NCBI GenBank assembly: GCA_963677765.1
Contig: OY782392.1
Span: 120,001-152,000 of the forward strand
Origin: Candidatus Saccharimonadota bacterium
GTDB lineage: Bacteria > Patescibacteriota > Gracilibacteria > BD1-5 > UBA6164
DNA length: 32,000 nt
Direction of reading: 5' to 3'
Each line of letters opens with the position of its first letter. Within the stretch, counting starts at the first letter, position 1. The notes below the pieces were generated by a model. That model was given only the letters and a program-made list of their open reading frames with translations, searched no databases and was not told where the DNA came from. Positions 5,469 through 31,165 of this stretch are shown piece by piece. Position numbers and translations under genes: made by a program.

Positions 5469-5470
5469 AA

Positions 5471-6784
5471 ATGAAAAATAAACTAATAACATTTTTTGTA
5501 ATATTTATTAGCATAAGTTTAAATACAACTTATGCTAATAATGGTGCTTGTAAAATAAAAGATTCTACTAATCAAAATATTATTGACTATATAGATAATA
5601 ATAGAAAAATAATAAAACTTATAACAGATGAAATAATATCAGGTTCATCAAATAAAGAAGAAAGATCTATAAAAAATAATTTAAAGAAAAATTACGAACA
5701 AATAAGAGGTCCTATATTAAGAATATACAATGAATCCTTTGATTTTTCTTGATATTATTCATATTTTAGGTACTATGCTGTTTACCCTATCTCAAATGAA
5801 GTACCATATGAAGTAAAAAGAGACTATAATATACTTGAAAAAGAATCTGAAGGTATAAAAATGATTATAGAAAAAGTAGCCGAGAGATGATTATCTAATA
5901 CAACTATTGCAGATGCATGTAAAAATATATGAGATGATTTTGTATGTAATATAGAAAATAATATAAATGTAGAAAAATTATTATCTATATTATTAAAAAA
6001 TAATACTAGAATTTTAGACTTATATAGAAATGTTGTTATCTGAGAATGAGCAAAAGATTATAATGATTTGATTTTAGTATCAAAAGATTTTGTAAAAATT
6101 ATAGAAACAAATTATAATCCAATTTCAAATGCAGAATGTAGTAAAGAATGATGATTTTTTGAAAGAATATCTAAAGCAATTCAAAATATATGAACACTTA
6201 ATAAAGAATGAAGAGACTGAGTTCAAAAATGGAAGGATGCTGTAGATTTATTATTACAAAAAGATATGAGTGATGAAGAATATCAAAAAATAGAAAAAGA
6301 ATTGTTAAGAAAAGAATTATCTAGACAATGAATTTCTTGAGATAGTCAACAAAATATGCTTGATGCTCTTGATAAATTCAATAAAAATAACTGAATGTCT
6401 TTGGATAATAATTTTTTGTATAATACTTTTAATAATACTTGGCAAAAATTAGAAAAAGAATTTAAACAATTTAATAAAGAAATTATTTGAGATTTCTTTG
6501 ATAAAAAAGATACTCCTGAAATTAGTATTTGAAATACAAATCTTGCAAAAAAGAATAGCCAAATAACAGCAGATGTAGAATACAGAATAAAAGAATTAAA
6601 TGAACAATTAAAAAACTTCGAATCTATTTCAGAATTTGATACTAATAATGTTGTATCAAAAATTATAGATATTCATATAGAGATAGCGAACTCCACAGAA
6701 GTATTACAAGATAGTTGTAAAGTAGCGGTACAAGTATGTGAAAAACAAGACGCTTCAAGATGAAACTGTTGAAAATGTAATTAA
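5471..6784 (+). CDS. secreted, mostly helical Cys-containing hypothetical protein (437 aa)
   Basis: ATG 5471 lies 2 nt after the previous stop, and TAA is at 6782-6784. The frame was checked line by line under code 25. It has a signal peptide MKNKLITFFVIFISISLNTTYA and a C-terminal Cys cluster CKVAVQVCEKQDASRGNCGKCN. Confidence 0.8.
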
Positions 6785-9645: not shown

Positions 9646-10170
9646 ATGAAATTGATAGTATGATTAGGTAATCCTTGAGACAAATACAAGCAAACAAGAC
9701 ATAATATATGATTTATGTTTTTAGATTATTTAAAACAAAAAGAAAAATTTAATGAATTTAATTTTGAATCAAAGTTTAAATGAGAAATAAGCTCTTGAAT
9801 TTTAAATTGAGAAAAAACTATATTATTAAAACCTCAAACATTTATGAATCTTAGTTGAGAATCAATAAAAAAAGTATTTGATTTTTATAAATTAAGTATA
9901 GATGATTTAATAATTATATATGATGATATGAGTATGGATTTTTGAAAACTTAGATATAGAGAAAACTGAAGTGCCTGATGACATAACTGAATAAAAGATA
10001 TAATAAGATTATTTTGACAAGATTTTAAAAGAATAAAAATATGAATTTGATATGATCAAAAATATGAAGTTAGTGATTGGGTTTTATCAAAATTTATTGA
10101 AGAAGAATTAATAGATTTGGAAAACGAAATATTTAAAAAAACAAAAATTTTACTTGATGAAAAAAATTAA
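9646..10170 (+). CDS. pth: peptidyl-tRNA hydrolase (174 aa)
   Basis: The translation [23 protein letters not shown]...GSAGGHNGIKDI is the canonical Pth signature. Its Gly residues are encoded by TGA. Confidence 0.92.
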
Positions 10171-11522: not shown

Positions 11523-12500
11523 ATGGATTTTATAAAAAAAATAAAAGATATATTAAAAAATAATATTCAAGTTAGCCAAACAATTGTACTAATTATGTTA
11601 TTAGTAATAGGTATAGAATTTTATTGATTAAATATAAATTATTTAAAAATTTCTGTTATATTTTTAACAGTTATGATATTTGATGCTATATTTATAAAAA
11701 TGAAATCATGAAAATGGAGTTTTCCTTATTCATGAATTAATGCATGATTTTGAATAAGTTTTTTCTTGAGAAGTGATGAATTAATAATATATTTTGTTGC
11801 TTGATTATTAGCTATAGCATGAAAAAATCTTATAAGAATTAATTGAAGACATTTTTTTAACCCATCAAATATGTGAGTACTATTAGTTTTAATATTATTT
11901 CCTCACTATACTTGGATTAATACTTTACAATGGTGAAATTATACTTGAGTTATTAATATGAAATACATATTAATAATAATTACTATATTAATATTTTGAG
12001 CATTTATTACTTATAGAGTTTATAAATTTTTTAAATATAAATATTTTATTGATTATTTATTACCATTTTTTATTTTACATATAATTTTATTTTTTACGAT
12101 TCCATATTATGAAAGCATAAATTCTGCATTATTATTTTTTAGTGTGTCATTTTTTATATTTATGTTTCATATGATAAGTGATCCAAAAACAGTACCAGAA
12201 AAATCTATATCTAGATTTATATATTCTATAAATATAGTTTTATCATTTTATGTATTACAATTTTTTATAAATGAAGCATATGCTCTAATAGCATCTTTAT
12301 TTGTAAATACAATTCAGTTACCAATAATATGGTATTACGAAAAAAATAACAAAAAAGTCAAGTGAAAATACCCATTTTATTTGGTATATCTTTTGTTAGT
12401 GAGCTTATTTATGATATTATTAATATCGTATCTAATAAATATTTTTTGAAGACCAGACCTTGTTTTTGACAATGTTTGTAATCAATTAATATGTAAGTAA
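11523..12500 (+). CDS. polytopic membrane protein, RnfD/NqrB-superfamily-like, orphan (325 aa)
   Basis: The frame was checked line by line under code 25, and multiple hydrophobic helices are present. RHFFNPSNMGVLLVLILFP resembles the RnfD motif FNPAMIGYVVLLISFP. FMFHMISDPKT resembles RnfD FFILTDPVT. The central flavinylated loop of RnfD is not evident. Confidence 0.45.
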
Positions 12501-12537: not shown

Positions 12538-12852
12538 ATGAAAAAATTAAATATCTCCCCTAAAGTTTTTACTCTAGTTTGAGTATTGTTAATTTATATT
12601 TCAGCACTTGTGTTAATTGAAAACACTTCTGAAAATACTTCTTATAAAAATAAAAATGCTATACATGATGTATCTGCAGAATTAAATTTTTATCAAAGTA
12701 CAAATAATAATCCATATGAACAAGAATTATGGTCTTCTGAAAAAGCTCCATTAGAAACAGTTTATGAAAAAGTAAAAGTAACATTAACAGGTGAACCAGA
12801 ACCTGCTGATACTGGAATAACTACTGTAAATGTAACTAGACATAGTCACTAA
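12538..12852 (+). CDS. small signal-anchored or secreted hypothetical protein (104 aa)
   Basis: ATG 12538 is in frame with the ORF-track fragment 12586-12852 across one TGA. The N-terminal hydrophobic segment is VFTLVGVLLIYISALVLI. Confidence 0.65.
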
Positions 12853-12885
12853 AATAATATAATTTACTTTTAATAAATAAAAAAT

Positions 12886-14745
12886 ATGAATAAAAAAATA
12901 ATCTTAACATTATTTATTACTTTTTTTTGATTACTTAATACAAATATAGCTAGTGCAGCTGTAACAGAAATAATAGAAGATGTAACAGAGTCTGTAACTC
13001 CAATGACAGAAGAAGAATCTTGTTTTGCTTTGTTAAATGAAAAAGTATGAACAGATGCAAGATTTCAAAATATAACTGAGGTTATGCCAAATTGAGATTT
13101 AACAGAAGTTTTATTTAACGAATCTGCTTGATCAAGTCTTGATTTATCAACATATGAAACATTTCAAGATTATGTTGTAAAAAATCCTGCACATAAATGA
13201 AGTTCTAAAAAATGGCGTGAAGATAATGGTCTTACTGAATATGATTTTTTTTCTAGAAGAACAAATATTGCAACTGTTATAGCAAAAGATAGATTTGTTG
13301 TATCTCAAGTAGTATGATTTTGAAGAAACTCTAATTTTGACTTCCCTGTTACTGCTGAATTTAAATCATATGGAGATAAATATAAATTAGAATGAGATAA
13401 TTTCAAAGAATTTGTATTGTATACTCATCATAGTATAACTTGAGACTTTTTAAGTTGTGGATTATTTAGATTAATACCTTTAGAAGAAAGAACATATTGA
13501 GATGTTCCTGAAGAAGCATATTTTACAAATACACTTCAAGGTAATAACAATCAAGCTAAATTATCAAATAATAAATGTAGTTCAGGTTTTGAATGAGAAT
13601 TTTTATCAAAATGATCTAAAGATTATTATGCTATGAAAACTAATGTTTGTGCATTAGACTATGGACAAAATGATTTTGTTAAACAAGAAATATTAGCAAT
13701 AGCATATGATAATGGTTCTAATTACTTCAATGAATATGATGTTTTTCAACAACAAGTAACAGCTATGAAAGACACTGATACGACTTCAAATGGTCTAGCA
13801 GAAGTAAGAGCTAAGTTTTTACAATATTTAAAAAACAATACTAGTTTAAGTTTAATAAATGGTAACTTAGATGATGATGAAATGTCTTTTAATACTACTA
13901 AAAATTTATTATCATATATTGTAAATAAATTAATTCCTAGTGCAAATGCTGCAAGAGAATTCAATTTTGACCAAGAATATATTGACTCTACAAAATGAAT
14001 GGTAATGTTTGAAGCTTTACCTTATGAACTATATGAAAAACTAGAAAAAATTCCTAGTAAAACTTTCGTAGAGTATATAAAATTATCATTAACTCCAAAC
14101 TTTGAAGATTATATAAAATATAGAAAAGATAATAATATAGTTTTAAGTAGTTATGAAAGAGTTTTTGCAAGTTGTGGTTTGACTTATGAAGAAAGAAATA
14201 ATGTAGTTGTTGATTTATTAGAATGAATTGAGGATCCTGAAAATTTTGATCCTTCAAATGTAAAATATTCAAATAAAAAATTCGGTGATTGTATTATTCC
14301 ATATCCAGATAGTGAAAATAGAAAAACAGTTATAGAAGATTCTTTTGAATCTAATAAGTTATTAGCTCAAAAACTAAATGGTAGCTATGAAGCACCTGAA
14401 GTTGAAGTAGAAATAACAAAAATGATAGAAGAAGAAAATTCTAAAAAATTAGAATATCAACAAAATATTGATAAACTTACTAACAACTATAATGAAGGTT
14501 TGATTAACTGAGAAGAACTAGAACAAAAAGTAAATGAAGAAAAACAAAAATTAGAAGACTCACTAAAACAAATAGAAGATAAATACTCTAAAATATTCAT
14601 GGAAACATCTCCATCAGATGAATATGAAATGATAAAAAATCAAGATAAAAAAACTAATCCTTTAGTATATGTAGTAGTAGCTGTGTTATTATTACTATGA
14701 GTAGCCTTATTATTTATGGCATTTAACAAAAACAAAAACAAATAA
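12886..14745 (+). CDS. surface protein with signal peptide, C-terminal coiled coil and C-terminal membrane anchor (619 aa)
   Basis: The frame was checked line by line. The signal peptide is MNKKIILTLFITFFGLLNTNIASA. A heptad-like region (KLEYQQNIDKLTNNYNEGLINGEELEQKVNEEKQKLEDSLKQIEDK) is followed by LVYVVVAVLLLLGVALLFMAF and a basic tail NKNKNK. Confidence 0.8.
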
Positions 14746-14764
14746 TTTATTAAAATTTAATATT

Positions 14765-17587
14765 ATGAAAATAATAAAAATAATTACTTTAACTATAGCT
14801 TTATTATTATCAAATAATTATGTTTTTTCTGACTTTACAACTACTTCTACAATTGTAGATTGAGAAAAAACTTTTGATAAAATACATTGAGAAAATAGAG
14901 TTTTATATGTTCATGAAGATTATGTAGTAAACCCTTTTTCATGATCTAATATAGTTAGAAACCAAACAAATGGTGCAACTACTTCTTATACTGTTGATGG
15001 TAGAGTATTTAATTCTAGTCATCCAAAATATGCAAATAACTGAGCAACTATGCAATCATGGACTAATCATTGAGATGGTACTCAAACTATGATTCAATAT
15101 TTAGAAAATACTCATACAAAAGATGCTTCTAATATAGTAATGCCAAATCAATCAGTAACTGTAAGAAAATACTATAAAGTTGATTTTAACTATGATACTA
15201 GTTGACCAACTGGTTGAGATTTAAAACTATATAATGATGAAAATGCAACTCAAGCATTTACATATACAGCTTGAACATGGTTAAATGAACCTAAGTATTA
15301 TACGATGACATGTAATGATCCTGAAACATGATGTAAATGTGATTTTAATCTAGATAAAACATCTGAAAATTGATGGACTGATGATAATAATCATGCATGT
15401 ACTAACAGTACTGAAATAGTAAAAGTTAATGGAGTTGTAAGAACTGTTCCAAGTATTATATGACATATGACATCTCCTAAAGTTTCATTTGAAAACAATG
15501 TTAACCTTAGAACAGATGATATTACTTGAACTATGCCAGGATGAAATAAAGTTATGTATGACCAATCAAATCCTCGTGTATGATTAGGTGTAACTCAATT
15601 AGTTGATTGAGAAAATAAAACTGTTATAGATTTTAACTTATGAAATGAAGATAACAGAGATTATAGAATTAATCCAGCTACTGGAAAACAATATGACTGA
15701 GAACAAATACCTTGAAAAGTATATTTTGATTCTAAAAAAATAGTTGATATAAAAGCTAATGATGAATTAAAATTATGAGTTGTATTTACTGATCAATATA
15801 TTACTGATTCTGCAAATGGTGTTTCTTGAATTAAAAACTATAATATAAAAATTTATAAAAAAGATAATTCTTGAAACTTCCCTACTACTGCAATATATAA
15901 TTTTTCAAAAAGTTATAGTGAATATAATACAGATGGTACAATACAAGAAAGTGATGATAAATGAAAATTATTAAGTGATTTTTGAGTTTTAAAAAACTCA
16001 TGAGAATATAAAATAATATTGGAAGCTTATGATTGGGCAAATAATCATACTCAATCTACTTCTTATTTAAATATATATCCAGAATGAGTTTCAGAATCTA
16101 ATATAAGTCTAGAATATAATTCTGATTCATGAGATAAATTTGCAAATAATAATGATTATTACCAATATATATTTACTATAAGAGATAAATATAATAATCC
16201 TGTACATGATAAAAAACTAGATATAATTTGACAAGATTGTTGAGATTTAACTTCTTGATGTTTAGAACTAAAAGAAAATACAGTTGATTGATCATGAGAA
16301 TCTGCATTAATAATTTATGATATAAGTAATGATGGTATTACTGATACAAACTGACAAGTAAGATTAAAAATAAAATCTGTATCACCAGGTACTTATACAA
16401 ATAGCTTTTTAGTACAAATTAGATCTTGGAACTACAAGTATATTGATACAAGCACTATAATAGATTTTTATGTTTTCAAAGCAGAAGATACTAATTTTAT
16501 TCCACCTTTTGAAATGTCAGAAATATTAGTAAGTGATGACTGAATTAATTGGGATTCAAAACCTGAAATTTGAAAAGAACAAAAATATAAAATTGTTGTT
16601 AATAATACAGGTTCATTATCATGATATACTAATTGAGTATTAAGACTTAATCAAGAAAGTATAAAAAGTAAAGTTGATTGACATTTTTGGATAAACTTCG
16701 AATGAGTTGAAAGAAATTTCTGAAATAATATTAATAGCTTTTTAGGTTTCTCATGAACAATAGATGGTAGTGCTAATCTATTAAAATGACCAGAAGTTGA
16801 AAATGATGAATTAGAAATTACTTATGATATACCTTCTGTTGATAGAAAAGTTGTTTATAGATTAGAGTCTGTTTCTATAAAAGGTTGTGATAGAGAAACT
16901 TTATGATTAAAAGTTGAATGAAATATCCAATGAGATGGTAAATCAGATATAACATGACAAGAAGAAAATTTTTCTGACTTATCATTATCAGAAACTAGAT
17001 CTATAATAAGACAAAATGCATATCAATTAATTAGAAATATGTCTAATGGACAAGTATTAAACTGAGTTAAATATATTGAAAATCAAGATTATGTTTTAGA
17101 AGAAAATCCTAGTTTTGAAACTCTAATTGTTAGAGAATGAAATGTAATTATTAACAAAGATATAAATACTTGAAATAACAAACTATGAATAATAGTATTA
17201 AAAGATAAATATGATGTTGCAAGTGATTATAATAATGCATGAAACATATATATAGCAAACAATGTTAATAATATATCTGCTGCATTATATTCAGATGGTA
17301 CTATGAGAAGTGCTAAATCAAATTGAACTAATTATAATGATTCTGAATTATTAAATGATTTAGAAATATTCTGAACAGTATTTACAAGAAATACTATTGG
17401 TTGAGCTGTTAATTGAGGTACAAGTTATACTTTACCTGGATGACAAGAAACTACAGATTATGAATTAGCTTCATCTTATGATTTAAACTATTTAAGAAAA
17501 TCAATGAGTTGTTGAGATGATTATGCATTATTAATAAAATATAATTCTGCATTACAAGTAAATCCTCCTAAAGGTTTTTCTAAATAA
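14765..17587 (+). CDS. giant secreted or surface protein, paralogue A (940 aa), Ig-like-repeat adhesin-like with a shared C-terminal module
   Basis: The entire ORF was read codon by codon under code 25 (ATG 14765 to TAA 17585-17587). The signal peptide is MKIIKIITLTIALLLSNNYVFS. Beta-rich segments such as YQYIFTIRDKYNNPVHDKKLDII recall bacterial Ig-like (Big) domains. The C-terminal ~230 aa are homologous to the 17675-21730 product. Confidence 0.85.
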
Positions 17588-17590
17588 TAA

Positions 17591-17624
17591 AAAAGATAGA
17601 ACAAAAATGTTCTATCTTTTTTTT
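17591..17624. terminator. rho-independent terminator (first of two between the convergent giant genes)
   Basis: A 12-bp perfect stem aaaagatagaac/gttctatctttt with loop aaaaat, then a T-run to 17624. Confidence 0.8.
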
Positions 17625-17640
17625 GAAAGTTAATAAATAA

Positions 17641-17673
17641 AAAAGAAAATACTTTTAAAGTATTTTCTTTTTT
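17641..17673. terminator. rho-independent terminator (second of two, abutting the stop of the minus-strand giant gene)
   Basis: A 12-bp perfect stem aaaagaaaatac/gtattttctttt with loop ttttaaa. A/T runs lie on both sides. Confidence 0.75.
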
Positions 17674-17674
17674 G

Positions 17675-20600
17675 TTATTTAGCAAAAACCTTAGGAGGAT
17701 TTACTTGAACATTTGGGTTGTATTCAATTACAAAAGCTCAATCTCTATATTTACAAACTCAAGATCAATTAACTATACAGTTTTTAATTCATCTTCTTGT
17801 ATAGTTTAAATCATAAACCATAGCTTTGTTAAAATTAGAAGTGTTATCAGAAAGAGATGATCATCATGGTAATTTATAATCTCCTCAAACTAAGAAAGCA
17901 CCTCAAATAGTATTTCTTGTAAATAATGTTCACTTCAATAATAATTGATTACTTAATTCAGAACTTCTTTGAGTATTATCAATAACATAAGGAATTCAAG
18001 AATTATTAACACTAATAAATCAACCATCTGCATATATAACAGCATTAATTTCAGAAACATCAGGACTGACATAAACATTTCATCAGTTTCATGATAAATA
18101 GTCAGTATTTACATCATAATTATCTTTTAATACTATTATTCAAAGTTTATTTCATGAAGTATTTATATTATTATTTATCAATAAATCTCAATCCTTTAAT
18201 ATAATAGTTTCATAAGTAGGATTAGTATCCATTACATAAACTCAATTTGCAATTTGATTTCAATCAACATATTTAACTCATCAAACTATAGAGTTATGTC
18301 TCATTTTCGAAATTTGATTATAAGCATTTTTTCTAATATCTGATCTAATATCAACCATAGATATATCAGAAAAATTATCTTCTTGTAATCATGCAAAATT
18401 TGATTTACCATCTCATTGTAATAATCAAACTACTTTAGCTCAAATAAATACATCATCGCTAGAATTAATTATAGATAATGCTTCAAATGAATTATAACTT
18501 TCATTTGGAGAAATAGGAGCTATAACTCATTGTGCTCATATATAATATCAAATAAATAGAGCTGTTTGTCATCAATTTTCTATCTGAATACCTGGTGTAC
18601 CAAAATCAGTTGCATCGTCTGATGTATTAATAGTAGCATCAAAAATTGCTTCTTTAGTTGATAATCAAGATATAGTATCAGATAAACTTTGTAAAGAAGT
18701 ATTATCATAATCAACTACATCAATATAATTTCTAAAATTAATCAAATTAGTAGAAGGATTATATCAAGTTGTAGATATTATTGAAACTTTATACTTCATA
18801 TTTGTACCAAACTCTGGTAAAGCTATCCATGTTGCTCCGTCATCATCAGAAGCTGTAATATCTCAAATAAATAGTTTTTTAAAACCATTTGTTTCATATC
18901 ATGCTCTTGCTAATATAGTATAAGTATTAAGAGTAGAATTTGGAGAATAATCATCATTCCATCAATTCATTTCTAACTTAAATCTATTTGAAAATTCTCA
19001 AGGAGCAGTTGAAGAAATTTTGAAAGGTATTTCTCAATTTGTATTAGATGAGACTCAAGAATATCAAGTTTCTATTAAAGAATCAACTCATGCATCAATA
19101 TTTCAATTAATCAAATAATCATACATATTTGATCTAATAGTAGAACATCAAGAAGTTACTCATTCACAAGTTTGATTAATAGAAGTTATAGTTTTTCAAT
19201 TAATACTATTTCAATATTGATCGTTTAAAACTAATTTATAATCATAAGCTTGTGTTCAATCAGGATATTTATCTCAAGTAGTCAACGGACTTACATAACT
19301 TTGTAAAACATCTACATCTGATGGATGAACAGTTATTTGTATATCTTTTACTCTAGAGTTACCATATTCATCTGTAGCAGTAACTTTTATATTTTTAACT
19401 CATTTAGTTTCAAATATTCAAGCTAATTCAATTGTATCATTTAAATAAGAATTATTAGTTCATCATAGAGTTCCTGATCTATAAGGAGCTCAGTTTAATA
19501 ATATTTGATAATTAATTTTTGAAACACAACTACTTCATCATGCAGTAGATTCATCCATATCTATAAATAATGAGTCACTATTTGCCTTATATGAATACGA
19601 TGTATTTCATAATGCTGCAGCTCATTTTCTAAAAGATATATTTGGTGCTGATTCATCTATATGATTCATACCATAGTTATATCAAATAGTATTATATGCT
19701 CTATCTGTAGTAACAAGAGTTCATTGTGCACCATTTTGAGACTGACTAGTAAATGTTATAGTTCTTCTTATAGTAGATCATCAAACAGTCATAGTTGGTC
19801 ACCGAGTAGTCCAACATCAACTACCTCATCTATCAAAATTACAAGCAGCTGTAAAAGTAATACTTCAACTTGTACATCTAGGAACAGCAAAATCTACATT
19901 ACTTTGTTCTTTTATATAGATTTTTACAGGTCTACCATTTGAATCTAGAAGTTGTCTAGGTATTACATCTTTTAAAGTAGATCTAATTATAGGATCAGCA
20001 TAAGATGAATCATCTTGCTTATGTTTTGCTGTAATATCAAATCATGTAAAATTATATGTATTACCAGGTTCTGGTATTTTTATTTTTAGATTAATTAAAT
20101 ATGGATCTACAGGATCAGATCTAACTCAATTAAGCTGTCTATAATAATATTGACTAGAAGAGGTAGCCATAACAACTTCAGGATCAGTTCAATCTGCAAA
20201 AGTTATATCATAACCATCAATAGTGTCATAATGAGGATTACCATATGGGTCTTCTATTCTTATACTTATAGCAAAACTTGTTTCATGATTATATCAATCA
20301 GTGTTATTAACTGGTATAGAAAATGTAGGCATTTCAGCATATCATCTTCATCATTGAATATTATCATTTGGTAATACTTTTATAGGAACACTATTTACTT
20401 TTGTTAAGTCCATAACTTCCTGAGTATTGATATTTTTTGCATACAAGTATAAAGATATATCTCATATTTTTGTAGGAGTAAATCATTCATTTACAGATAT
20501 ACGAAATTGTTTTAACCTCCAACTAAGAACATCTATATCAAAGATTTGATCTATAACTTCTGGTGTTAATGTATCAGATCTAATATTAAAATCAGTATCT

Positions 20601-21730
20601 ATATATATAGTTTCTTCTGAAACATTTGCTGCTTCAGTATTAATATCTGGTATATTTTCTCAAGAGTATCTATAATAGATTTTATATTGATAAGCTGTTT
20701 CTTCTCATGAAGTATCTAAATAATCTTGAAATCAAAAATCTTCTAGATAAACAGATTCATTAGCTTTTACAGAATAACTACTAACTCTAAATCAATCATA
20801 AACCTTAAAATTTTCAGCCCTAAACTCACTACTTGGCTTTATATCTCAAGTAATAAATCTCAAAGGAAAATTAGAATCAATATAACGACCTCATGTTCTA
20901 GTTTCATCACAATATTCAACTCAATCTATAGTACCATCAGCAGTACATATATTTTTCATACTATAATAAAATCTTTCATTATTAGTATCAATCTTTAAAG
21001 TATCATCATATATAGCTGGTATATAATCACTAATTCTATTTTTCTTTTCTCACCATGGTAAACCAGAGTGCAAATCATTTATCACATCTCTAAAGTTTAA
21101 CATAAGATATTCAAATCCATTGTCATAAATATCAGAGCTTCTATATGTTTTTGGATAATAACAATAATAATCACCAGTAGTCCAATAGTCAGGAGAATAT
21201 ACACATTCTTGAGACCAAGAATCCCTTACTCTATCAACTATAATTATTTCTGTATCATAATTAAATATTTCATCTATAGTAAATTCTCTATTTTCAACAA
21301 AAAATGATTCATTTTCTTCTACTAAAACATATTCAGTATCAGTAACTGTTATAGTTCAAGATCAACTAGGATGAGGTTCTTCTCTAGTAACTTCTACTTC
21401 TTCATAATATGGTTCATGAAAATCAGGATTTTCTCTATAAACATCTTCTATAGTAAAAGTTTTATTTCCATAATAATCAGATATTTCTCATAAGATTATA
21501 TTTTGCAATAAAGTAAACATTCAAGTTTCAGAATAAGTTTCTTCAACATTTGCCATAAAATAATCATCTCTATTAACTCTCAAAGTATCATAATCTGTTT
21601 CGTAACAGTCTTGATCATTACAAACATATGGGTAAAGATATCATGATCTATCACTAGCAGAATGAGATGTTCAAAATAAAGCAAAAAATGATATAATTAT
21701 TGATAATAAAACAAATAATTTATTTCTCAT
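17675..21730 (-). CDS. giant secreted or surface protein, paralogue B (1351 aa), Cys-rich N-terminal region, Ig-like repeats and shared C-terminal module
   Basis: All 1352 codons were checked and there is no TAA or TAG in frame (ATG at 21730, TAA at 17677-17675). The signal peptide is MRNKLFVLLSIIISFFALFGTSHS. Segments such as YDYKLVLNDQYGNSINGKTI and ATDEYGNSRVKDIQITVHPS are Ig/cadherin-like. The protein ends in NPNVQVNPPKVFAK. Confidence 0.85.
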
Positions 21731-21756
21731 AATTTGTATTTTAAAATAATATAAAA

Positions 21757-21789
21757 ATATCAAAAACAGAAAAAAACTGTTTTTGATAT
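21757..21789 (-). terminator. rho-independent terminator after the small Cys-rich gene, upstream of giant paralogue B
   Basis: A 13-bp perfect stem atatcaaaaacag/ctgtttttgatat with loop aaaaaaa. A T-run follows on the minus strand. Confidence 0.75.
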
Positions 21790-21795
21790 TGTTTA

Positions 21796-22215
21796 CTAGT
21801 TAACACTTACATCAATACCACCAGTTGGATCGATTCTGTCAGTTTCAATTATTGAACATGTTGTAGTTTCATATGGATAGTCAGCAGTATGTCTTCAACT
21901 CGCTCAACCTGTATTAGCAAAAGCTCACATATTAGTATAACCAGCTTCACAAGAAGTTCTTCTATGATGGTAAGCTACTTTTGTAGTTTTTGTACCATAA
22001 CAAGTTCTAGTACCACTTTGAGTCCAAGAATCACATCTATTAATTTGACATGGTTCATTTGTAACTGATTTTACACAAATATAATCAGGATTAGCAGCTA
22101 CTTTTTCAGTACCAGCCATAAAACCAAAGTAAGATGCACCAGATATAGCTAAAACAGCAACAACTGCCATAGCAGATTTAACAGCTACATTATTGTTAGT
22201 ATTTTTTTTAGTCAT
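21796..22215 (-). CDS. small Cys-rich membrane-anchored or secreted protein (139 aa)
   Basis: The ORF-track fragment 21925-22215 continues through three TGA codons to TAG at 21798-21796. The N-terminal helix is AMAVVAVLAISGASYFGFMAG and the ectodomain has six Cys. The gene is locally GC-richer than its neighbours by eye. Confidence 0.75.
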
Positions 22216-22253
22216 AGTATAATATAATAAAAAATTAAAAAATTATAAATATA

Positions 22254-22282
22254 ATTAAACCACAAATTAAAACATATTGCAA
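22254..22282 (-). promoter_or_regulatory. candidate sigma70-like promoter of the Cys-rich gene
   Basis: On the minus strand: TTGCAA (22282-22277), a 17-nt spacer ending in TGG, then TTTAAT (22259-22254). Confidence 0.4.
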
Positions 22283-22283
22283 A

Positions 22284-23846
22284 TTATCTTATATGAAAAA
22301 AAGGTAATTCAACAGTTCATTCAGTATCAATAACTCTATGTCAGACATTTTCCCAAGCTCATTTTTCTCTATTTAGAGTCCACCGAGCTGGCCATCTAAG
22401 GAATTGATTTCAAACTAAGAAATCAAAATCTATTGGATATCATCATTGTTCTTCTGAATAATCAACAAGAAATTGCATATCCTCATCTGTTATAGCACCA
22501 TATAGATTATCAGCATTTGAATATAATTCTTCCATATGATAAACCTTGTTTTGAAGTATAACAGGATTATCTGATTTAGTATATAACTCTTTTCATGTAA
22601 TATTATCAATTATTTGAATATATGGCATTCAAAAAGTTTTCATTGTATTACCTAAATAACCATAAACAGGTCAGAAAGTATCAGAATTAAGTAGATTTGT
22701 AGTATTAGTATCTCTGTTGAATTGATATAAATAAACAGTTATATCTTTATTCTCATATTTTTCTAAAGTATCACTATAATATAATGAATCATAAGGTATA
22801 AAATATGAAGAACCATCCATTTCTAATACATAATATCTAGCATTAGTATAATCATCACTATTTTCAGAGTTAACTTTTATAATCTTATCTGCTTTATTTA
22901 ATGTAAAACTAACAGTCATATTTTTAAAGTCAACTGGTGATCAATATTGATTTAATCATATAGTTACATATCAATCAGAATATCATTCATATTTTGCTTT
23001 TAATCTAATATGAGTAAAAGGATCAAAACTTCATGAGTATTCAAATTTTCAATCTTTTGTTGTAGCTATATCTTGTCAAAAATTAAGTATTTCTATTATA
23101 GCTCAATCTATAGGAGCTCAAGATTGATCAATAACTACTCAATCTAAATTAAGTGTTATTTTTTCTATATCATCTTCTCTTAATTTATTAGCTTCATCAT
23201 AATCTCATCTTAGATCATATAAATAAGCTAATAACTCTTCTTGATTTTTTGATAAATTTGATTGATTTAAATCATCAATTACATTATTTATATTATTGTC
23301 TTGACTAAAAACATTTACAGCTAATACATCATTCAAAACTGAAGTAAGTGGATGTTGCAAATCTCTTTCAAAAGTTATTTTATGACTAGATGAAGAGTTA
23401 TATCATCAATATATTAAATTTTCTTTATAAGAAGAATATATATCTAAAATAGCTAAGTTTTTATATCATTCTTCATCAAAAATATATCATTCTGTTTTAA
23501 ATCTATAAGGTATATATGTTATATTTCAGTTAGAATCTTTTTTTCAAATGGCAAAATTTTCTTCTAATGGATCAAAATCTATACCTTCATAATCTTTTAG
23601 TTCCTCTAAGAAATCTCAAAATTTTTCATATTTTTCAGGATTAATCCCAATTTTATCATAATTTTCTTGTGATAAAGTATCTGTTATCAAAGAATCCATA
23701 TGATATTGTCATTCATATTGTTCCAAATAATCTGGCTGACTACTAAATTTTTGTTTAATATCAGATCAATTAATAGAAATAAGAAAAAATAACAAAACAG
23801 AAACTATGATAAGCGGTATTATGTAGAAAATATTATTGTTTACCAT
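22284..23846 (-). CDS. N-terminally membrane-anchored protein with a carboxypeptidase-regulatory-like beta-sandwich domain (520 aa)
   Basis: The frame was checked line by line (ATG at 23846, TAA at 22286-22284). The transmembrane segment is IFYIIPLIIVSVLLFFLISI. The segment LDGVVIDQSGAPIDGAIIEILNFGQDIATTKDGKFEYSGSF...LKAKYEGYSDGYVTI fits the CarboxypepD_reg pattern. Confidence 0.75.
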
Positions 23847-23903
23847 ATTTAAAAATTATGATTTTAAAATCTAATTATTATTATAAATAAATTTATAATA
23901 AAA

Positions 23904-23940
23904 CAAACAAAAGAGCTTTACAAGAAAGCTCTTTTGTTTG
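23904..23940 (-). terminator. rho-independent terminator of secD
   Basis: A 16-bp perfect stem caaacaaaagagcttt/aaagctcttttgtttg with loop acaag, 10 nt downstream of the secD stop. Confidence 0.8.
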
Positions 23941-23950
23941 TAAATAATTT

Positions 23951-26805: not shown

Positions 26806-27453
26806 ATGAAAAAATCAAAAGTAGCAACATCTATAGCTGAAGCCATGGTAGTTTTGACTATAATAGTATTATGATTAACATGAATCTATAATATATATAA
26901 CAAATCAATGGATTTAACTATAGCAGTTGAAAATAAGATTCAAGCAATTCAAATAGCTAGAGAATGAATAGAAGCTGTAACAAATATAAGAGATACAAAT
27001 TGGCTAGTTTTTACATCTGACCCAAATAATTGTTGGAAAACCTTAAACTATGATGATAGTTGTGTTTGAGAAAGCGATCCTTTATCAAGAATAGATATAA
27101 ATGATGGTAGTTATAGAGTATATAGAAATACAGATAATAGATGGGAACTAGATTGATGATGAGCTATATCATGAGATTATAGCAATACTCCATATAGAGA
27201 GTTTTATAAAATAAGACTAGATAGTAATTGATTATATACTCAAGATTGAACATGAACAGATTTTAATCCAGTTTATACAAGAGAAATACAAGTAACAACT
27301 ATTGATGAAACATCGATAGATCCAAATACATGAAATCCTTACTATACACAAGCATTTGAATGACTTATGATTAAAAGTATAGTTTATTGGTCCGAAGAAT
27401 GAAGAATAAGAAATGTTAGCATAGAAACAATAATAACAAATTACAAAAAATAG
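26806..27453 (+). CDS. prepilin-type N-terminal domain protein (type IV minor pilin or pseudopilin-like, 215 aa)
   Basis: The frame was checked line by line (ATG 26806 to TAG 27451-27453). The N-terminus MKKSKVA-TSIAEAMVVLTIIVLGL has the charged leader, Glu at +5 and hydrophobic helix of class III signal peptides. It is followed by a PilV/GspI-like helix, AVENKIQAIQIAREGIEAV. Confidence 0.5.
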
Positions 27454-27485
27454 AAGCCTAAGAGATAGACTTCTATTTTTATTTT
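27447..27485. terminator. hairpin terminator shared by the convergent pilin-like gene and the 1228-aa gene
   Basis: A 10-bp stem aaaatagaag/cttctatttt with a 13-nt loop, then tttttatttt. It overlaps the stop of the minus-strand gene. Confidence 0.55.
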
Positions 27486-30400
27486 ATAAGATCATTTATT
27501 TTAATTTTTACTTCCTCTTCTGTTTGTCAAGGAATATCTTTTCATTTATTCATAAATGCCTTGTAGGCTTTTTCTAAATAATCTTCTTTTGAAGCGAATT
27601 TATCTTTATCATATAAACCAAATCATACTTCTTCTATCATAACATCAATAATAGGATTTCAAGCTCATTCTGATTTACTAAATCTTCATGATACTTCTTT
27701 TATATAATCAGAGAAAAATTCAAATTGTTCTTTGAAAAGCTCTTTTCTTTGTTCTTCTGTAACTCAAGTTTCATCTCAAACTTTATAGTTTCTAATAGTT
27801 TCAAAAGAATTTATGTACATGTTATACATATCTTTACTTGTAGGTCTTCATAAACCTCATGTTGGGTCAGAAGATATTTTTGAAATTCATCATTTTGTAA
27901 AAGCAATAGGATTTTTCTTATAAACTCAATAAGTTATATCATCATCTTTTACATTGAATTCTCAATCACTATGAACTCAGTTTAACATCTCATAATATTG
28001 TTTATAAACAGGTTCTTCATTTCTTCTCATTATAGTATATGGGTCTGATAAGTTTATATGGTTTATAAGTTGTTTTCAATAAGTAGTCCAGAATTTGTAT
28101 ATAGCTTTTACTTTTTTTTCAGAATCACTTTCTTGTTTTGCAGCTCTAAATTTTTTCATTGCTTCAGATTCAGCTCCTCATAATTTATCAACTATTACTT
28201 GTTCTATAAAATTGTTATACAAATTTATTCAATCACTATCTTTATTAAAAATAAGAGTAGTAAAAGGAGTTGAAAAACCTAAACCTATAAGTTTATTCAA
28301 TAAAACTTGATCCATATTTTTTGCAAAACCAGAAATAGTCAAAACAAAAGGAACTGCATTCATTTCAAAAGAACTACCATTTTTTCAAAAAATATTTTCC
28401 AAAGAACCAATAGCATTTGCATATCAAAGTTTTTCTAATTCTCATAAAAAATAACTAATTCTTCATTCCGTTGTTATTTTATTACCAGATTTCATAGCTC
28501 AATCTTCCATTTCATCTCTCATACCTCAAGCTAAAGCTCATCAAAAATCTTTATCTAATCTAGATCTAATAGTTCATCCTTTAGCTCTATCTCATAACCA
28601 AGATTCAACTAATCTTTCTTCTGTAAAAAAGATTGGTTGAGGTTTTCATTCTGGAGATTTAGCACTTGCAATTCATTCTTTGAATTTAGCTAATTTCGAT
28701 TGAGTTCATCATAATCTTTTATACCATAAAAGACTTCAAGAATATTTTCTTAATTCTTTTGGATATAAACTACCATATTTTCAAACTACTGTCATCATTG
28801 CAGCTATAACTTCGTATTCTTCTGAATTTTTATTCAAAAGAATTTTCTCTACTTGTTTTATCATATCTTTTGATCAAAGAGATTTCAAATTAGCCGATAT
28901 TTCTTCAGTAAGAGATTTTTCTTCTTGCTCAGCAGCTGATTTCATATTTAGATAAAATGTATCTGGTCATAGTTTTGCCATTTTTTGTGCAAACTTCAAA
29001 GATTTTAATTTACTTCATCTTTCTAAAGTTTTCTTTATATTCTCAGGAAAAAACTTAATTGCTCACATCAAATCAGCAAAACTCATTCTTGACATATATT
29101 TACTAAGACCTGATCATTTTAAACTTTTTTCTCAAAAAATTTCTTCTGGAGACTTTTCTTCTTCCTTTATTCCTTTTAAATAAGGAGATAATTTATATTT
29201 TTCTATATCATATAAAAATTGTGAAAAATTCTTAGCATTATATGAATTTTCTCAAGACTCAAATTTAAATCAGTCTTTTGATTCTTTAAAACTTCATTTT
29301 GTATATTCTATTTTATCTTTTCATATTTTTCTTATATATATAGCATCTCAATTTTCTCAAACAAAATATTTTACTCATGTATAAGTTTCACTTTGTGAAA
29401 GTTTTTCATCTGATTTTAGGCATATCTTGTCAGAGTTTTTTCATCATATATCAAGTGAATTAAATCAACTTAATCATAATTCTCAAGCAGTCGAAACAAA
29501 ACTATCAAAATTATTAATTTTTTTTCTTCTTTTGAATTTTGATTCTTTAAATACTTCAAAAAACTTATTAAAATCTACATTTATACTTCATCATGCTCAT
29601 TGATTTATAGTTATAGTTTTACTACTTTCATCTATAGAATCAACCAAAAAGATAAAATTTTCATCATCATTACTAGATATAACCATTTCATCAGATTTCA
29701 TTTTTATAGATTTTCATTCTGGATCAATTGCATCTATTTTATTTTTTAATTGATCTATAGTATTTATATTGTTATCTTCTACCATTTCTTTTTCTCCTAT
29801 ATCTTTTTTTTCATAAAAATTAATAGATATGTCTTTGTTATCTGGCTTAGATATATTTTTTAATAAACTATAAAAATCATCGTATAAATAATTTTCTTCT
29901 GCTCAACTAAGATCCTTTTTAAATCAATTGGGAGTAGTAACATCTTTTAGCTTTAAAACCTTTGACTCAGCTACTGATCAGTGATCAACTTTTGATATAT
30001 AATAATAAGTAAAATGAGGATTTCATTTTTTATCAAAATATTGTAGTTCTATAAAATTTTTCTCTATTAATTTATTTATAGACTCCCTAATATAAGGTGA
30101 AATACTTTTATCTTTTGAAATTTTTTCTATAAAAGATTTATGAATATTTTGTTCTTCTCATTCTATATCTAATTCTCATAAAATAGATTCTTGCATAGAA
30201 TTATTTTGTTCTATTTCACTATTATATATATCAATCAATCTAGATTTTATTTTTTCATCATTAAATAAATCTTCTATATTATTAGAGTTTTCTAAATCTT
30301 CTAAGTCTATAAAATAACTTTTTTTATCAAGTGAATCAAATATTTCTTTTATTTTTTCATCTTCTAATCATTCTATAAGATTTTTAGAGTCAGATTTAAA

Positions 30401-31165
30401 TTTTTCAAATATTTTTTCTTTTAAACTATCTGATAAAATATTATTTTTTTTCAAATCATAATAAGATATAGTTTCCAAAAAATATTTAATCAAAGCTTTT
30501 TTTGATCAATTATTTAAAGATTGAAGCAATATATCCAATCATTGTAAATCTATTTTTGAATTACTATTAAATATACTAAATAAATAAGTTATTTCTTCTT
30601 GATTTAAAGTAGATAAATTTATATTTATTTCTCTTTCAAGCATAGTTTTTATTTCTTTTTTTGCAGAAAGAGCAGTGTTTTTATCTGAAAAGATATCATT
30701 TTTAATCAAAAAATCTAATCTTTTATTTGGGTATTTCAATAAAGATATCAAAGTATTATTATCTAGTTTTGATAATGATGTATTTAAAATATTTTTTGAA
30801 TTATCATCAAGAGTATATTCAAAATTATATTTTTCATTTAATTTTTTAAAGTTTGATTTTCTAGGTAGAGTTAGTTTTAATACCTCTGATTTTAATTGTG
30901 AAGTTATAGTTTCAATTTTTGATTTTTTTAATCCACTCAGATTTAAAGATAAGTCTTTATACTCATCTCTAATGCTAACAAAAGAAAAATAATCAGTGTA
31001 AATTTTTGATATATCATATTCAGAAGAATCAAAAAAATCCATATTATCTTGAAGTTTTGATAATATAAAATCATTTTGAGATTTTGATAACAATGATGTA
31101 TCAATTGTTTTTTCTTTTTGAGAATTTTCTATAGAATTAGAACTATTTTTTCAAGAAAGAGACAT
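27479..31165 (-). CDS. large orphan hypothetical protein, apparently cytoplasmic (1228 aa)
   Basis: All lines were checked and there is no TAA or TAG in frame (ATG at 31165, TAA at 27481-27479), with an in-frame TAA four codons upstream of the ATG. It has no signal peptide, no transmembrane segment, and no P-loop or HExxH. It is rich in K, E, S and N. Confidence 0.8.

What the first reader, a model, noticed from the sequence alone, without database searches (positions are those of the whole stretch)
12538..23846. ~11 kb island of six consecutive envelope or secreted proteins with no enzymatic signature: candidate host or prey attachment apparatus
Six genes in a row all carry a signal peptide or membrane anchor, and none has a recognisable catalytic motif. 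They are the 104-aa signal-anchored protein, the 619-aa tail-anchored coiled-coil protein, giant paralogue A, giant paralogue B, the 139-aa Cys-rich anchored protein, and the 520-aa anchored protein with a carboxypeptidase-regulatory-like domain.

They are arranged as two convergent arms meeting at a double terminator. Code-25 lineages are small-genome organisms for which episymbiotic or predatory lifestyles have been reported. Devoting this much sequence to adhesin-like architecture suggests a cell-cell interaction system. The mix of fibre-like giants, a small abundant-looking subunit and membrane anchors is what an assembled surface structure would need.
Basis: inference. Interest (0 to 1): 0.72.

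Follow-up and report, generated by a model that had tools for sequence, protein, structure and literature searches.

The report
Two surface-protein cassettes in Gracilibacteria
The "six-gene island" is real, but it is two separately inherited gene cassettes in a tiny UGA-recoded bacterium; each pairs a giant secreted protein from a large, undescribed family with its own membrane-anchored partners, probably building cell-surface structures whose exact role (host contact or envelope layer) is unproven.

Summary
Under genetic code 25 (UGA = Gly, confirmed) six consecutive genes at 12538-23846 encode exported or membrane-anchored proteins. None has an enzymatic signature. They form two convergent arms separated by two strong bidirectional hairpins.

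The single-apparatus interpretation is only partly right. Synteny in about 10 related genomes resolves two independent cassettes:
- Module R: the 520-aa, 139-aa and 1351-aa (giant B) proteins.
Each cassette occurs alone, in other genomic contexts.

Both giants end in a strictly C-terminal module. It defines a large family (2,210 50%-identity clusters) almost confined to code-25 lineages. It has no Pfam, NCBIfam or PDB-sequence match. A confident AlphaFold model (pLDDT 86.6) has no Foldseek match.

The module's subtypes do not track the cassettes, so it probably does a generic job such as anchoring or display. The cassette-specific, fast-evolving N-terminal regions probably pair with the partners.

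Best reading: envelope-anchored surface assemblies. A host or prey adhesion role is plausible but untested, and a two-component S-layer-like role is a serious rival.

The parts
11523..12500 (+). mem325: 325-aa polytopic membrane protein and first gene of Module F. It is a divergent RnfD/NqrB-superfamily protein without the FMN-attachment motif.
   Evidence: Pfam NQR2_RnfD_RnfE matches at E 1.4e-5 (25.1 bits, cut-off 27.7) across nearly the whole profile. It has no [ST]GAT motif but keeps NPS and DPKT motifs. It stays with the 104/619/940 genes in the rearranged loci L004 and L014. It evolves at a housekeeping rate.
12538..12852 (+). G1: 104-aa signal-anchored (type II) small protein with the invariant motifs 'VSAELNFYQST' and a C-terminal 'N[VI]TRHSH'.
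   Evidence: It has no family hits. It is syntenic in L001, L003, L004, L014 and L020.
12886..14745 (+). G2: 619-aa protein. It has a cleavable signal peptide, a conserved globular region of about 450 aa with 6 Cys, a helical coiled-coil-like stretch of about 70 aa, a C-terminal TM helix and a KNKNK tail. It is a tail-anchored stalk candidate.
   Evidence: The PDB profile search gives only coiled-coil noise at residues 485-566.
14765..17587 (+). Giant A (940 aa): signal peptide, a cassette-specific N-terminal region, beta-sandwich domains, and the family C-terminal module at residues 701-939 (16865-17581).
   Evidence: The AF2 model of the 87% orthologue has C-terminal pLDDT of 86-95. Foldseek matches MG/Ig arrays. 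The family HMM matches at E 2e-51.
17589..17676 (.). Two bidirectional terminator hairpins (17589-17622 and 17636-17676) between the convergent giants.
   Evidence: -33 and -31.6 kcal/mol on the two strands, z -9.2 and -9.5.
17675..21730 (-). Giant B (1351 aa): signal peptide, a hypervariable N-terminal region of about 300 aa, beta-rich middle, and the family C-terminal module at residues 1074-1350 (17681-18511).
   Evidence: The family HMM matches at E 9e-53.
21756..21790 (-). Hairpin with a T-run between G5 and giant B, a candidate terminator or attenuator.
   Evidence: z -5.4. Analogous hairpins with different sequences occur in L001, L013 and L021. They are absent in L012 and L023.
21796..22215 (-). 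G5: 139-aa precursor of a small, basic (pI 8.2), Cys-rich secreted protein with 6 Cys. It is the fastest-evolving member.
   Evidence: It has a conserved 'xA|NPDYIC' cleavage site. It avoids UGA-Gly in 3 of 5 lineages. It has no PDB sequence hit.
22284..23846 (-). G6: 520-aa N-terminally anchored protein and first gene of Module R. It has a CarboxypepD_reg-like beta-sandwich at residues 234-300 and a highly conserved C-terminal domain ('GYPIDFDFL..N.FLRWPA.W').
   Evidence: It has 41 homologue clusters, all 500-550 aa.
23903..23941 (.). 17-bp-stem bidirectional hairpin that separates secD from Module R.
   Evidence: z -8.7.

Best explanation
The locus holds two independent, convergently juxtaposed cassettes of a Gracilibacteria (order BD1-5, code 25) genome. 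Each probably builds an envelope-anchored surface assembly.

Shown:
- Each cassette encodes one Sec-exported giant made largely of tandem beta-sandwich domains.
- Each giant ends in a lineage-specific C-terminal module. The same module terminates thousands of otherwise different secreted proteins in these bacteria.
- Each cassette also encodes cassette-specific membrane-anchored or secreted partners. Module F has mem325, G1 and tail-anchored G2. Module R has N-anchored G6 and small secreted Cys-rich G5.

Inferred mechanism:
- All components are exported by Sec.
- The interchangeable C-terminal module does a generic job common to the whole family. The most likely job is retention or display on the cell envelope, or self-assembly.
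- The cassette-specific N-terminal parts of A and B dock onto, or are decorated by, their own partners.
- The most exposed parts diversify fastest: B's first ~300 residues, A's residues 510-690, and G5.
- The resulting structures are surface fibres or a lattice that mediates contact with other cells or with the environment.
- Host or prey adhesion is the most plausible single role, given the episymbiotic or predatory biology reported for code-25 relatives. It is not demonstrated.
For: Export and anchoring. No catalytic family was found.

Cassette independence.
- Module F occurs alone in L004 and L014 between Xer and Map.
- Module R occurs alone in L012 and L023 next to SecD. It also occurs alone in L013 and L021, with unrelated flanks.
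- L023 has the same neighbourhood as the window but lacks Module F at the MurC|B junction.

Family of the C-terminal module.
- It has 2,210 representatives at E<=1e-3 and 939 at E<=1e-30.
- It ends within 10 residues of the C-terminus in 200 of 203 members.
- 134 of 161 full-length members have a signal-peptide-like N-terminus.
- 176 of 208 fetched proteins have more than 3% W, meaning UGA was mistranslated, so they come from code-25 lineages.

Fold.
- The P0011 model has pLDDT 86.6.
- Its best Foldseek E-values are 0.24 against PDB and 0.15 against BFVD.
- The giant's middle region matches MG/Ig arrays, invasin and the SbsB S-layer protein.

Interchangeable module. The two C-terminal subtypes do not follow cassette type.

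Evolutionary rates.
- Against L001, B is 55% and G5 49% identical, versus 81-93% for housekeeping genes.
- mem325 and G1 evolve at housekeeping rates.
- B's N-terminus is 30-40% identical with indels, while its C-terminal module is 70-87% identical.

Transcription. Terminators bracket both cassettes, and a hairpin follows G5.

Literature. Giant membrane or surface proteins are proposed to mediate host recognition in Vampirococcus (PMC8080830). Large extracellular proteins are anticipated in a Gracilibacterium (PMC6851277).
Against: - There is no direct evidence of surface localisation, abundance, assembly or binding.
- There is no evidence of partner-giant interaction beyond conserved synteny.
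- The C-terminal module has no known anchoring motif: no LPXTG, SLH, CWB2 or LysM. Its conserved polar residues (N, T, D, R) could equally mark a binding or catalytic site.
- Many family members, such as the ~470-aa proteins (L018), have no such partners, so partners are not needed for the module's function.
- The N-terminal third of the giant's model is unreliable. Its pLDDT is below 50, and the model was built from a code-4 (W for G) translation.
- mem325 could be an unrelated membrane protein that is merely linked to the cassette.
Confidence: 0.6

Rival explanations
1. Two-component S-layer-like envelope. The giants form an outer canopy or lattice. The membrane-anchored partners are the stalks that hold it above the membrane: G2 with its coiled coil and C-terminal TM helix, and G6 with its N-terminal TM helix. 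The archaeal SlaA/SlaB pair works this way. The role would be structural or protective rather than host attachment.
For: - G2 has the same topology as SlaB: signal peptide, globular domain, helical coiled-coil-like stretch, C-terminal TM helix (SlaB described in PMC10903991).
- The giants are beta-rich, about 0.9-1.4 kaa, acidic (pI 4.5-4.7), and more variable than their anchors, as is SlaA (PMC10903991).
- Foldseek lists the SbsB S-layer protein among the hits.
- G6's beta-sandwich weakly matches a SlaB domain (8qox_B, E 0.021).
- A periodic surface layer was anticipated for a Gracilibacterium (PMC6851277).
Against: - The SlaB match is not significant and concerns a generic beta-sandwich.
- Each cassette can be absent from its syntenic site in relatives. 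L023 lacks F and L014 lacks R at those sites, which is unusual for an essential envelope layer. The cassettes could lie elsewhere in those genomes.
- The giants contain 8-14 Cys, and B has a hypervariable tip, which is more typical of adhesins.
- No expression or lattice data exist.
Confidence: 0.2
2. Alpha-2-macroglobulin/complement-like protease traps. The giants would be defensive protease inhibitors of the bacterial A2M type, held at the membrane by their partners.
For: The best Foldseek matches of the giant's model are MG-domain arrays of complement C3/C5, cobra venom factor, A2M and CD109, at E 7e-5 to 1e-3. A2M-like giants are noted in Vampirococcus (PMC8080830), and one lies near Module R in L021.
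Against: - Neither A nor B has a thioester motif C[GLSA]EQ.
- Pfam finds no A2M, MG2, TED or bait-region domains, whereas the true A2M-like protein in L021 shows them all.
- TM-scores are about 0.1 with rmsd about 30 A, which is similarity between generic tandem beta-sandwiches.
- The giants are far shorter than bacterial A2Ms.
Confidence: 0.03
3. Fortuitous neighbourhood. The genes are unrelated secreted proteins that are adjacent only because close relatives are collinear, and they form no functional unit.
For: In the closest relatives (L001, L003, L006-L009) the housekeeping flanks are just as collinear as the six genes. The two arms are indeed unrelated to each other in inheritance.
Against: - Within each arm, the genes stay together, in the same order and strand, when the flanks change completely. 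Module R does so in L013 and L021, and Module F in L004 and L014.
- This holds at 24-60% protein identity.
- The genes are tightly spaced, at 19-68 nt, and bracketed by terminators.
Confidence: 0.07
4. Secreted effector delivery. G5, a small, basic, Cys-rich, fast-evolving and probably abundant secreted protein, would be a toxin or effector acting on host or prey membranes. G6 and B would present or deliver it.
For: G5 has a conserved signal-peptidase site, 6 conserved Cys and pI 8.2, against acidic partners. It shows the fastest divergence in the locus. A terminator-like hairpin follows it in 4 of 6 lineages. It avoids UGA-Gly in the same way as a ribosomal protein gene.
Against: G5 matches no toxin or bacteriocin family. 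The same properties fit a small structural subunit or cap. UGA avoidance is absent in L023, and the calibration rests on a single ribosomal gene.
Confidence: 0.1

Closest known systems
Giant membrane and surface proteins of Absconditabacteria and Gracilibacteria (Vampirococcus lugosii, PMC8080830; Gracilibacterium BD02T64, PMC6851277)
   Same: Both belong to the same code-25 clade. Both are large exported beta-rich proteins proposed, by inference, to form a fibrous surface and mediate host contact.
   Different: The published giants are described through known domains (PKD, DUF11, integrin, fibronectin, A2M, PTD repeats). These proteins carry none of them. They are defined by an unannotated C-terminal module, and they come in conserved cassettes with dedicated partners. 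Neither feature is described in the papers I could read.
Sulfolobus two-component S-layer SlaA/SlaB (PDB 8QOX; PMC10903991)
   Same: In both, a large beta-rich outer protein that varies more than its anchor is paired with a stalk protein. The stalk has a signal peptide, a globular or beta domain, a coiled coil and a C-terminal TM helix. G2 has this topology.
   Different: There is no significant sequence or fold homology. The only match is E 0.021, to a generic beta-sandwich, and in G6 rather than G2. The system here is bacterial, not archaeal. There are extra partners (mem325, G1, G5). Lattice formation is unknown.
Conserved anchoring or sorting modules on variable surface proteins (CWB2 of Clostridioides difficile cell-wall proteins, SLH domains, the T9SS C-terminal domain). 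This comparison rests on my own knowledge.
   Same: In all of these, one conserved terminal module is shared by many paralogues with otherwise unrelated 'cargo' regions. All the proteins are exported. The module is interchangeable between proteins.
   Different: There is no sequence match to any of these Pfam families. The module here is about 240-320 aa, strictly C-terminal, and confined to code-25 Patescibacteria. Its binding target or sorting machinery is unknown.
Inverse autotransporters (invasin/intimin) with Big_1 arrays
   Same: There is a weak Big_1 match in A (E 2.4e-4) and a Foldseek hit to invasin 1cwv (E 3e-3). Both kinds of protein are rod-like Ig arrays.
   Different: These proteins have no N-terminal beta-barrel or LysM domain and no C-type-lectin tip. 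The organism is not expected to have an outer membrane.

Membership tests
Code-25 (UGA = Gly) Gracilibacteria/BD1-5 genome | UGA is read as sense and aligns with conserved Gly. The relatives are Gracilibacteria MAGs. | tested here: met
.
New C-terminal-module family (unnamed) | A match to the family HMM ending at the extreme C-terminus of a secreted protein. | tested here: met
   A residues 701-939 match at E 2e-51 and B residues 1074-1350 at E 9e-53.
CarboxypepD_reg-like domain proteins (PF13620), for G6 | A Pfam match at or above the gathering score. | tested here: inconclusive
   The window protein scores 27 bits against a cut-off of 32.3. Several orthologues carry precomputed PF13620 hits and the corresponding NCBI name. 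This is a beta-sandwich module only and says nothing about function.
RnfD/NqrB (PF03116), for mem325 | A profile match above the cut-off. | tested here: inconclusive
   25.1 bits against 27.7, with near-full-length coverage. There is no NCBIfam hit.
RnfD/NqrB (PF03116), for mem325 | A covalent-FMN threonine motif ([ST]GAT) and neighbouring Rnf/Nqr subunit genes. | tested here: not met
   None of the 4 orthologues has the motif. There are no Rnf/Nqr genes in the window or in related loci.
Alpha-2-macroglobulin/complement family | A thioester CxEQ motif and A2M, MG2 and TED domains. | tested here: not met
   The only similarity is a generic MG-like fold.
Sortase-anchored (LPXTG) surface proteins and pili | A C-terminal LPXTG motif followed by a hydrophobic stretch and a basic tail. 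| tested here: not met
   Neither A nor B has LPXTG. G2 has the hydrophobic stretch and basic tail but no LPXTG.
Type IV pilins | A class III signal peptide, G|(F/M)xxxE, followed by a hydrophobic helix. | tested here: not met
   The N-termini of G1 and G5 lack a conserved Gly at -1 and Glu at +5 across orthologues. Only the unrelated gene at 26806-27453 looks pilin-like.
Inverse autotransporters (intimin/invasin) | An N-terminal beta-barrel, Big_1 repeats and a lectin-like tip. | tested here: not met
   There is only one sub-threshold Big_1 hit and no barrel domain.
SlaA/SlaB-type two-component S-layer | A stalk protein with a signal peptide, a coiled coil and a C-terminal TM helix, encoded next to a large beta-rich canopy protein. 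| tested here: met
   The architecture of G2 and A fits. This is architectural similarity only.
SlaA/SlaB-type two-component S-layer | Sequence or fold homology to SlaA or SlaB, and formation of a 2D lattice. | tested here: not met
   Homology was not found: profile searches give E 0.021 at best, and that is for G6 rather than G2. Lattice formation cannot be tested with these tools.
Phage or anti-phage defence genes | A match to PHROGs or PADLOC, or presence on viral contigs. | tested here: not met

The most novel reading that the evidence does not exclude
The C-terminal module would be the universal surface-display and anchoring (or self-assembly) device of code-25 Patescibacteria. It would be a lineage-specific counterpart of SLH, CWB2 or the T9SS C-terminal domain, with a fold unrelated to any solved structure. 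Modules F and R would be two dedicated multi-protein surface machines built on it. Module F would include a repurposed, non-redox RnfD-like membrane platform. Together they would form the host-contact or envelope structures that these unculturable episymbionts depend on.
Probability: 0.25. Interest if true: 0.75.

Novelty: new variant of a known kind. Interest (0 to 1): 0.58.

Why it matters
Gracilibacteria and Absconditabacteria are almost uncultured, have tiny genomes, and are thought to live on other cells. How they hold on to those cells, and what their envelope is made of, is unknown.

This analysis provides three things:
- Two concrete, conserved gene cassettes.
- A very large, unannotated protein family (more than 2,000 clusters) with a confidently predicted but unmatched fold, as candidate building blocks of that surface.
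- Testable predictions. The conserved C-terminal module is the generic anchor or display element. The variable N-termini and G5 are the exposed, diversifying parts. G2 and G6 are membrane stalks.

It also flags a practical problem. Public protein sets translate these genomes with code 4 (W at UGA), which hides such families from annotation and from structure prediction.

Tried and rejected
I used a code-4 orthologue (P0001) and a correctly translated family member (P0011) instead.
- Profile searches against PDB sequences gave nothing significant for the C-terminal module, G2, G6, mem325 or G5.
- Foldseek of the confident P0011 model against PDB and BFVD gave no match.
- A Pfam scan of all 74 family members found no recurrent family. 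Ten correctly translated long members gave only one Big_13 hit.
- NCBIfam, PADLOC and PHROGs gave nothing.
- The viral-contig scan for the module found nothing.
- The metagenome scan for G2 returned only one near-identical fragment, L020.
- The small genes next to a 491-aa family member in L018 are unrelated to G1 and G5.
- A search for invertible or mobile-element repeats around the cassettes found only the A/B paralogy. I ran it because of the adjacent Xer recombinase.
- The metaproteomics supplement of PMC11452946 could not be mapped to the L017 giant.
- The Absconditicoccus paper is not held.
- The context look-up for the 94% G6 homologue failed.
- I rejected the A2M-like trap (no thioester or A2M domains), sortase pili (no LPXTG), pilins (no class III signal) and a redox role for RnfD (no FMN site, no partner subunits).
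Full report
**Genetic code and gene map**

The window is 23% G+C. With the standard bacterial code it has almost no long ORFs (7 kb in ORFs of at least 100 aa). With UGA read as sense it is densely coding (41 kb). UGA falls on the invariant glycines of both ClpC Walker A motifs, and on conserved Gly positions in Map and Pth. UGA therefore means Gly (code 25), not Trp.

The code-25 gene map is as follows:
- ClpC
- two secreted proteins (537 and 437 aa)
- Map
- Xer
- a 309-aa protein
- Pth
- MurC
- a 325-aa polytopic membrane protein ('mem325', 11523-12500+)
- the six genes of the finding
- SecD(F)
- RlmN
- a pilin-like gene
- a 1228-aa protein
- an RseP-like gene

**Check of the observation**

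| Gene | Size | Window position |
|---|---|---|
| G1 | 104 aa | 12538-12852+ |
| G2 | 619 aa | 12886-14745+ |
| giant A | 940 aa | 14765-17587+ |
| giant B | 1351 aa | 17675-21730- |
| G5 | 139 aa | 21796-22215- |
| G6 | 520 aa | 22284-23846- |

All six proteins have an N-terminal hydrophobic segment. G2 also has a C-terminal TM helix and a basic tail. A residues 407-940 and B residues 771-1351 are 34% identical, E 1e-74.

Pfam and NCBIfam find no enzyme family. The only hits are sub-threshold: Big_1 in A and CarboxypepD_reg in G6. PADLOC and PHROGs find nothing.

Two strong, bidirectional hairpins (17589-17622 and 17636-17676; z about -9) lie between the convergent giants.

One detail changes. 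G5 has a conserved signal-peptidase-I site, '(V/S)xA|NPDYIC', in six orthologues. It is probably secreted, not anchored.

**Synteny: two cassettes, not one island**

Close relatives are fully collinear with the window, housekeeping flanks included, so they are uninformative. Their giant A orthologues are 87%, 67% and 53% identical to the window's giant A.

More distant genomes are decisive. I called genes with code 25 and compared them with the window's proteins.

- L004 and L014 (A 40% identical). The block mem325-G1-G2-A sits between Xer and Map, both on the opposite strand. B, G5 and G6 are not nearby. In L014, SecD is followed directly by MurC.
- L012 and L023. The block G6-G5-giant follows SecD, and the giant is followed directly by MurC or Pth. 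This is the same neighbourhood as the window but without mem325-G1-G2-A.
- L013 and L021 (G6 49% and 38% identical). The same G6-G5-giant triad lies among entirely unrelated genes.

The 'island' is therefore two independently inherited cassettes:
- Module R: G6-G5-B.

They happen to abut, convergently, in this lineage. Terminator-like hairpins bracket them. One lies after secD (23903-23941). The double hairpin lies between A and B. A third follows G5 (21756-21790). Hairpins in that last position, with different sequences, occur in L001, L013 and L021 but not in L012 or L023.

**The giants and their C-terminal module**

A search with A found only five full-length homologues. A profile of the last 300 residues of 14 giants found 74 proteins.

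An exhaustive profile search then found 2,210 50%-identity cluster representatives at E<=1e-3, of which 939 had E<=1e-30.

Properties of the family:
- The module ends within 10 residues of the C-terminus in 200 of 203 members examined.
- Family members range from about 450 to 1,780 aa.
- 134 of 161 full-length members have a signal-peptide-like N-terminus.
- 176 of 208 fetched proteins have more than 3% Trp. This is the signature of UGA mistranslated as W, so the family is essentially confined to code-25 lineages.

In the window, only A (residues 701-939) and B (residues 1074-1350) carry the module.

No Pfam family recurs among 74 members. The N-terminal 'cargo' regions of ten correctly translated long members are also unannotated, apart from one Big_13 hit. 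No viral contig carries the module.

**Structure**

I therefore modelled two database proteins.

- P0011 is a correctly translated 480-aa family member. Its model has mean pLDDT 86.6 and pTM 0.79, with the C-terminal module above 90. It has no significant Foldseek match in the PDB (best E 0.24, TM about 0.1) or in BFVD (best E 0.15). A sequence profile of the module finds nothing in the PDB either.
- P0001 is the 87% orthologue of A, translated with W for G. Its model is only partly reliable, with mean pLDDT 63.5. The C-terminal module reaches 86-95, some central beta-sandwiches reach 75-87, and the N-terminal third is below 50.

P0001's Foldseek hits are tandem beta-sandwich arrays at E 7e-5 to 3e-3: complement C3/C5 MG domains, A2M, invasin, nectin and the SbsB S-layer protein. 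TM-scores are low. This points to a generic rod or sheet of Ig/MG-like domains, not to a specific family. Neither giant has a thioester, LPXTG or RGD motif.

**Which parts are generic and which are specific**

The C-terminal module comes in two subtypes: a short-loop type ending '...NPPKGF', and a Cys-loop type, '...NC....C.Y.DGA...PPK[LV]F'. In genomes with both cassettes, A has the first subtype and B the second. However, the Module F giant of L014 has the B-like subtype, and the Module R giants of L012 and L023 have the A-like subtype.

The module is therefore interchangeable between cassettes and cannot be what recognises the cassette-specific partners. Many family members also have no such partners at all (L015-L018).

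I infer that the module performs a generic function, and that the cassette-specific N-terminal regions are what pair with G1/G2/mem325 or with G5/G6.

**Evolutionary rates**

| Gene | Identity to L001 |
|---|---|
| housekeeping genes | 77-93% |
| mem325 | 82% |
| G1 | 77% |
| G6 | 74% |
| G2 | 73% |
| A | 73% |
| B | 55% |
| G5 | 49% |

Along B, the first ~300 residues are 30-40% identical and contain indels, whereas the C-terminal module is 70-87% identical. In A, residues 510-690 become the most divergent part at greater evolutionary depth.

This is the pattern expected for a conserved membrane-proximal base carrying exposed, diversifying distal parts.

**Hints about stoichiometry**

G5 is followed by a terminator-like hairpin in 4 of 6 lineages. 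It uses UGA for Gly far less often than background in three of five lineages:
- window, 3 of 12
- L001, P 4e-3
- L013, P 9e-4

The one ribosomal protein gene available (L25 in L018) avoids UGA completely (0 of 13, P 1e-4). The calibration rests on a single gene, and L023 is an exception.

**Partner proteins**

- G2 has a cleavable signal peptide, a conserved Cys-containing globular region, a helical coiled-coil-like stretch, a TM helix and a KNKNK tail. It is a tail-anchored stalk.
- G6 has an N-terminal anchor, a CarboxypepD_reg-like beta-sandwich and a very conserved C-terminal domain. Its 41 homologue clusters are all 500-550 aa.
- G6's beta-sandwich weakly matches a domain of 8qox_B (E 0.021). 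That chain is SlaB, the membrane stalk of the Sulfolobus two-component S-layer (PMC10903991). The match is not significant.
- The SlaA/SlaB architecture is nevertheless the closest known analogue of G2 plus A: a large variable beta-rich canopy, plus a stalk with a signal peptide, a coiled coil and a C-terminal TM helix.
- mem325 is a divergent RnfD/NqrB-superfamily protein, just below the Pfam cut-off. It lacks the FMN-attachment motif, and no partner Rnf or Nqr subunits are present. A redox role is unlikely. Its function in Module F is unknown.

**Interpretation**

The best-supported reading (confidence about 0.6) is that each cassette builds an envelope-anchored surface assembly from a giant of this family and its dedicated partners.

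The adhesin reading is consistent with what is proposed for Vampirococcus (PMC8080830) and with the hypervariable tip of B.

I rejected these alternatives:
- an A2M-like protease trap
- sortase pili
- type IV pilins
- phage or defence genes

A fortuitous gene neighbourhood is unlikely within each cassette, but it is the correct description of the relation between the two cassettes.

**Novelty**

The literature I could search speaks only generically of giant or large extracellular proteins in these lineages (PMC8080830, PMC6851277, PMC11452946). I found no description of this C-terminal module, of its family, or of the two cassettes.

I rate the finding a new variant of a known kind: surface giants with membrane anchors. 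It comes with a sizeable, structurally unmatched, lineage-restricted domain family attached.

Noticed in passing
window 3855-6784 (+): Two adjacent secreted proteins (537 and 437 aa, 5 and 8 Cys, no Pfam hit) lie between ClpC and Map. The pair keeps this position in every relative examined (L001, L003, L012, L014, L017) and evolves fast (27-40% identity at depth). It looks like another conserved surface or secreted pair.
   Followed up: partly
window 26806-27453 (+): This 215-aa protein has a type IV pilin-like N-terminus ('MKKSKVA|TSIAEAMVVL', Glu at +5). It stays next to RlmN in L001, L012 and L023. It matches no Pfam or NCBIfam family.
   Followed up: partly
window 27479-31165 (-): This 1228-aa protein has no TM segment and no Pfam hit. 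A 1383-aa homologue (29% identity over 450 aa) sits at the same position in L023.
   Followed up: no
L018 6785-7438; window 21796-22215: UGA-Gly codon avoidance may track expression in code-25 genomes. Ribosomal protein L25 uses UGA for 0 of 13 Gly codons against a background of 0.5. G5 shows similar avoidance in 3 of 5 lineages.
   Followed up: partly
public protein collections (P0001-P0249): Most database proteins from these lineages are translated with code 4, giving Trp at UGA instead of Gly. Family members therefore have 4-9% Trp. This degrades homology detection and structure prediction. The structure tool also refuses correct code-25 translations of the window.
   Followed up: yes
window 12538-12852 (G1): G1 ends in a strictly invariant 'N[VI]TRHSH' and contains an invariant 'VSAELNFYQST' across orthologues at 58-97% identity. 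This could be a docking or metal-binding motif. It is unexplained.
   Followed up: no
window 17075-17230 versus 18098-18253, and 16910-17505 versus 17787-18436: The 3' coding regions of the convergent giants form long, imperfect inverted repeats (73-87% complementary) around the terminators. The two C-terminal-module subtypes are distributed mosaically between cassettes in other genomes. This suggests past exchange of 3' halves.
   Followed up: partly
family members P0091-P0208; L016 and L017 giants: Many giants of the family begin, right after the signal peptide, with a conserved 'xWYGNH(A/P)V' motif (19 of 203 by a strict pattern). A and B lack it. It probably marks a separate N-terminal domain subfamily.
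   Followed up: no
L022 7028-9627 (PJEL010001471.1, GC 39%, standard code): A distant G6 homologue (28-30% identity) occurs in a genome with the standard code. It lies inside a ribosomal-protein cluster and is followed by a 347-aa TM-anchored Cys-containing protein, with no giant. G6-like proteins therefore extend beyond code-25 lineages.
   Followed up: no
window 10157-10170: The predicted MurC start overlaps the end of pth by 14 nt. The orthologues in L001 and L003 are called about 5-20 codons shorter, so the true MurC start is probably one of the downstream ATGs.
   Followed up: no
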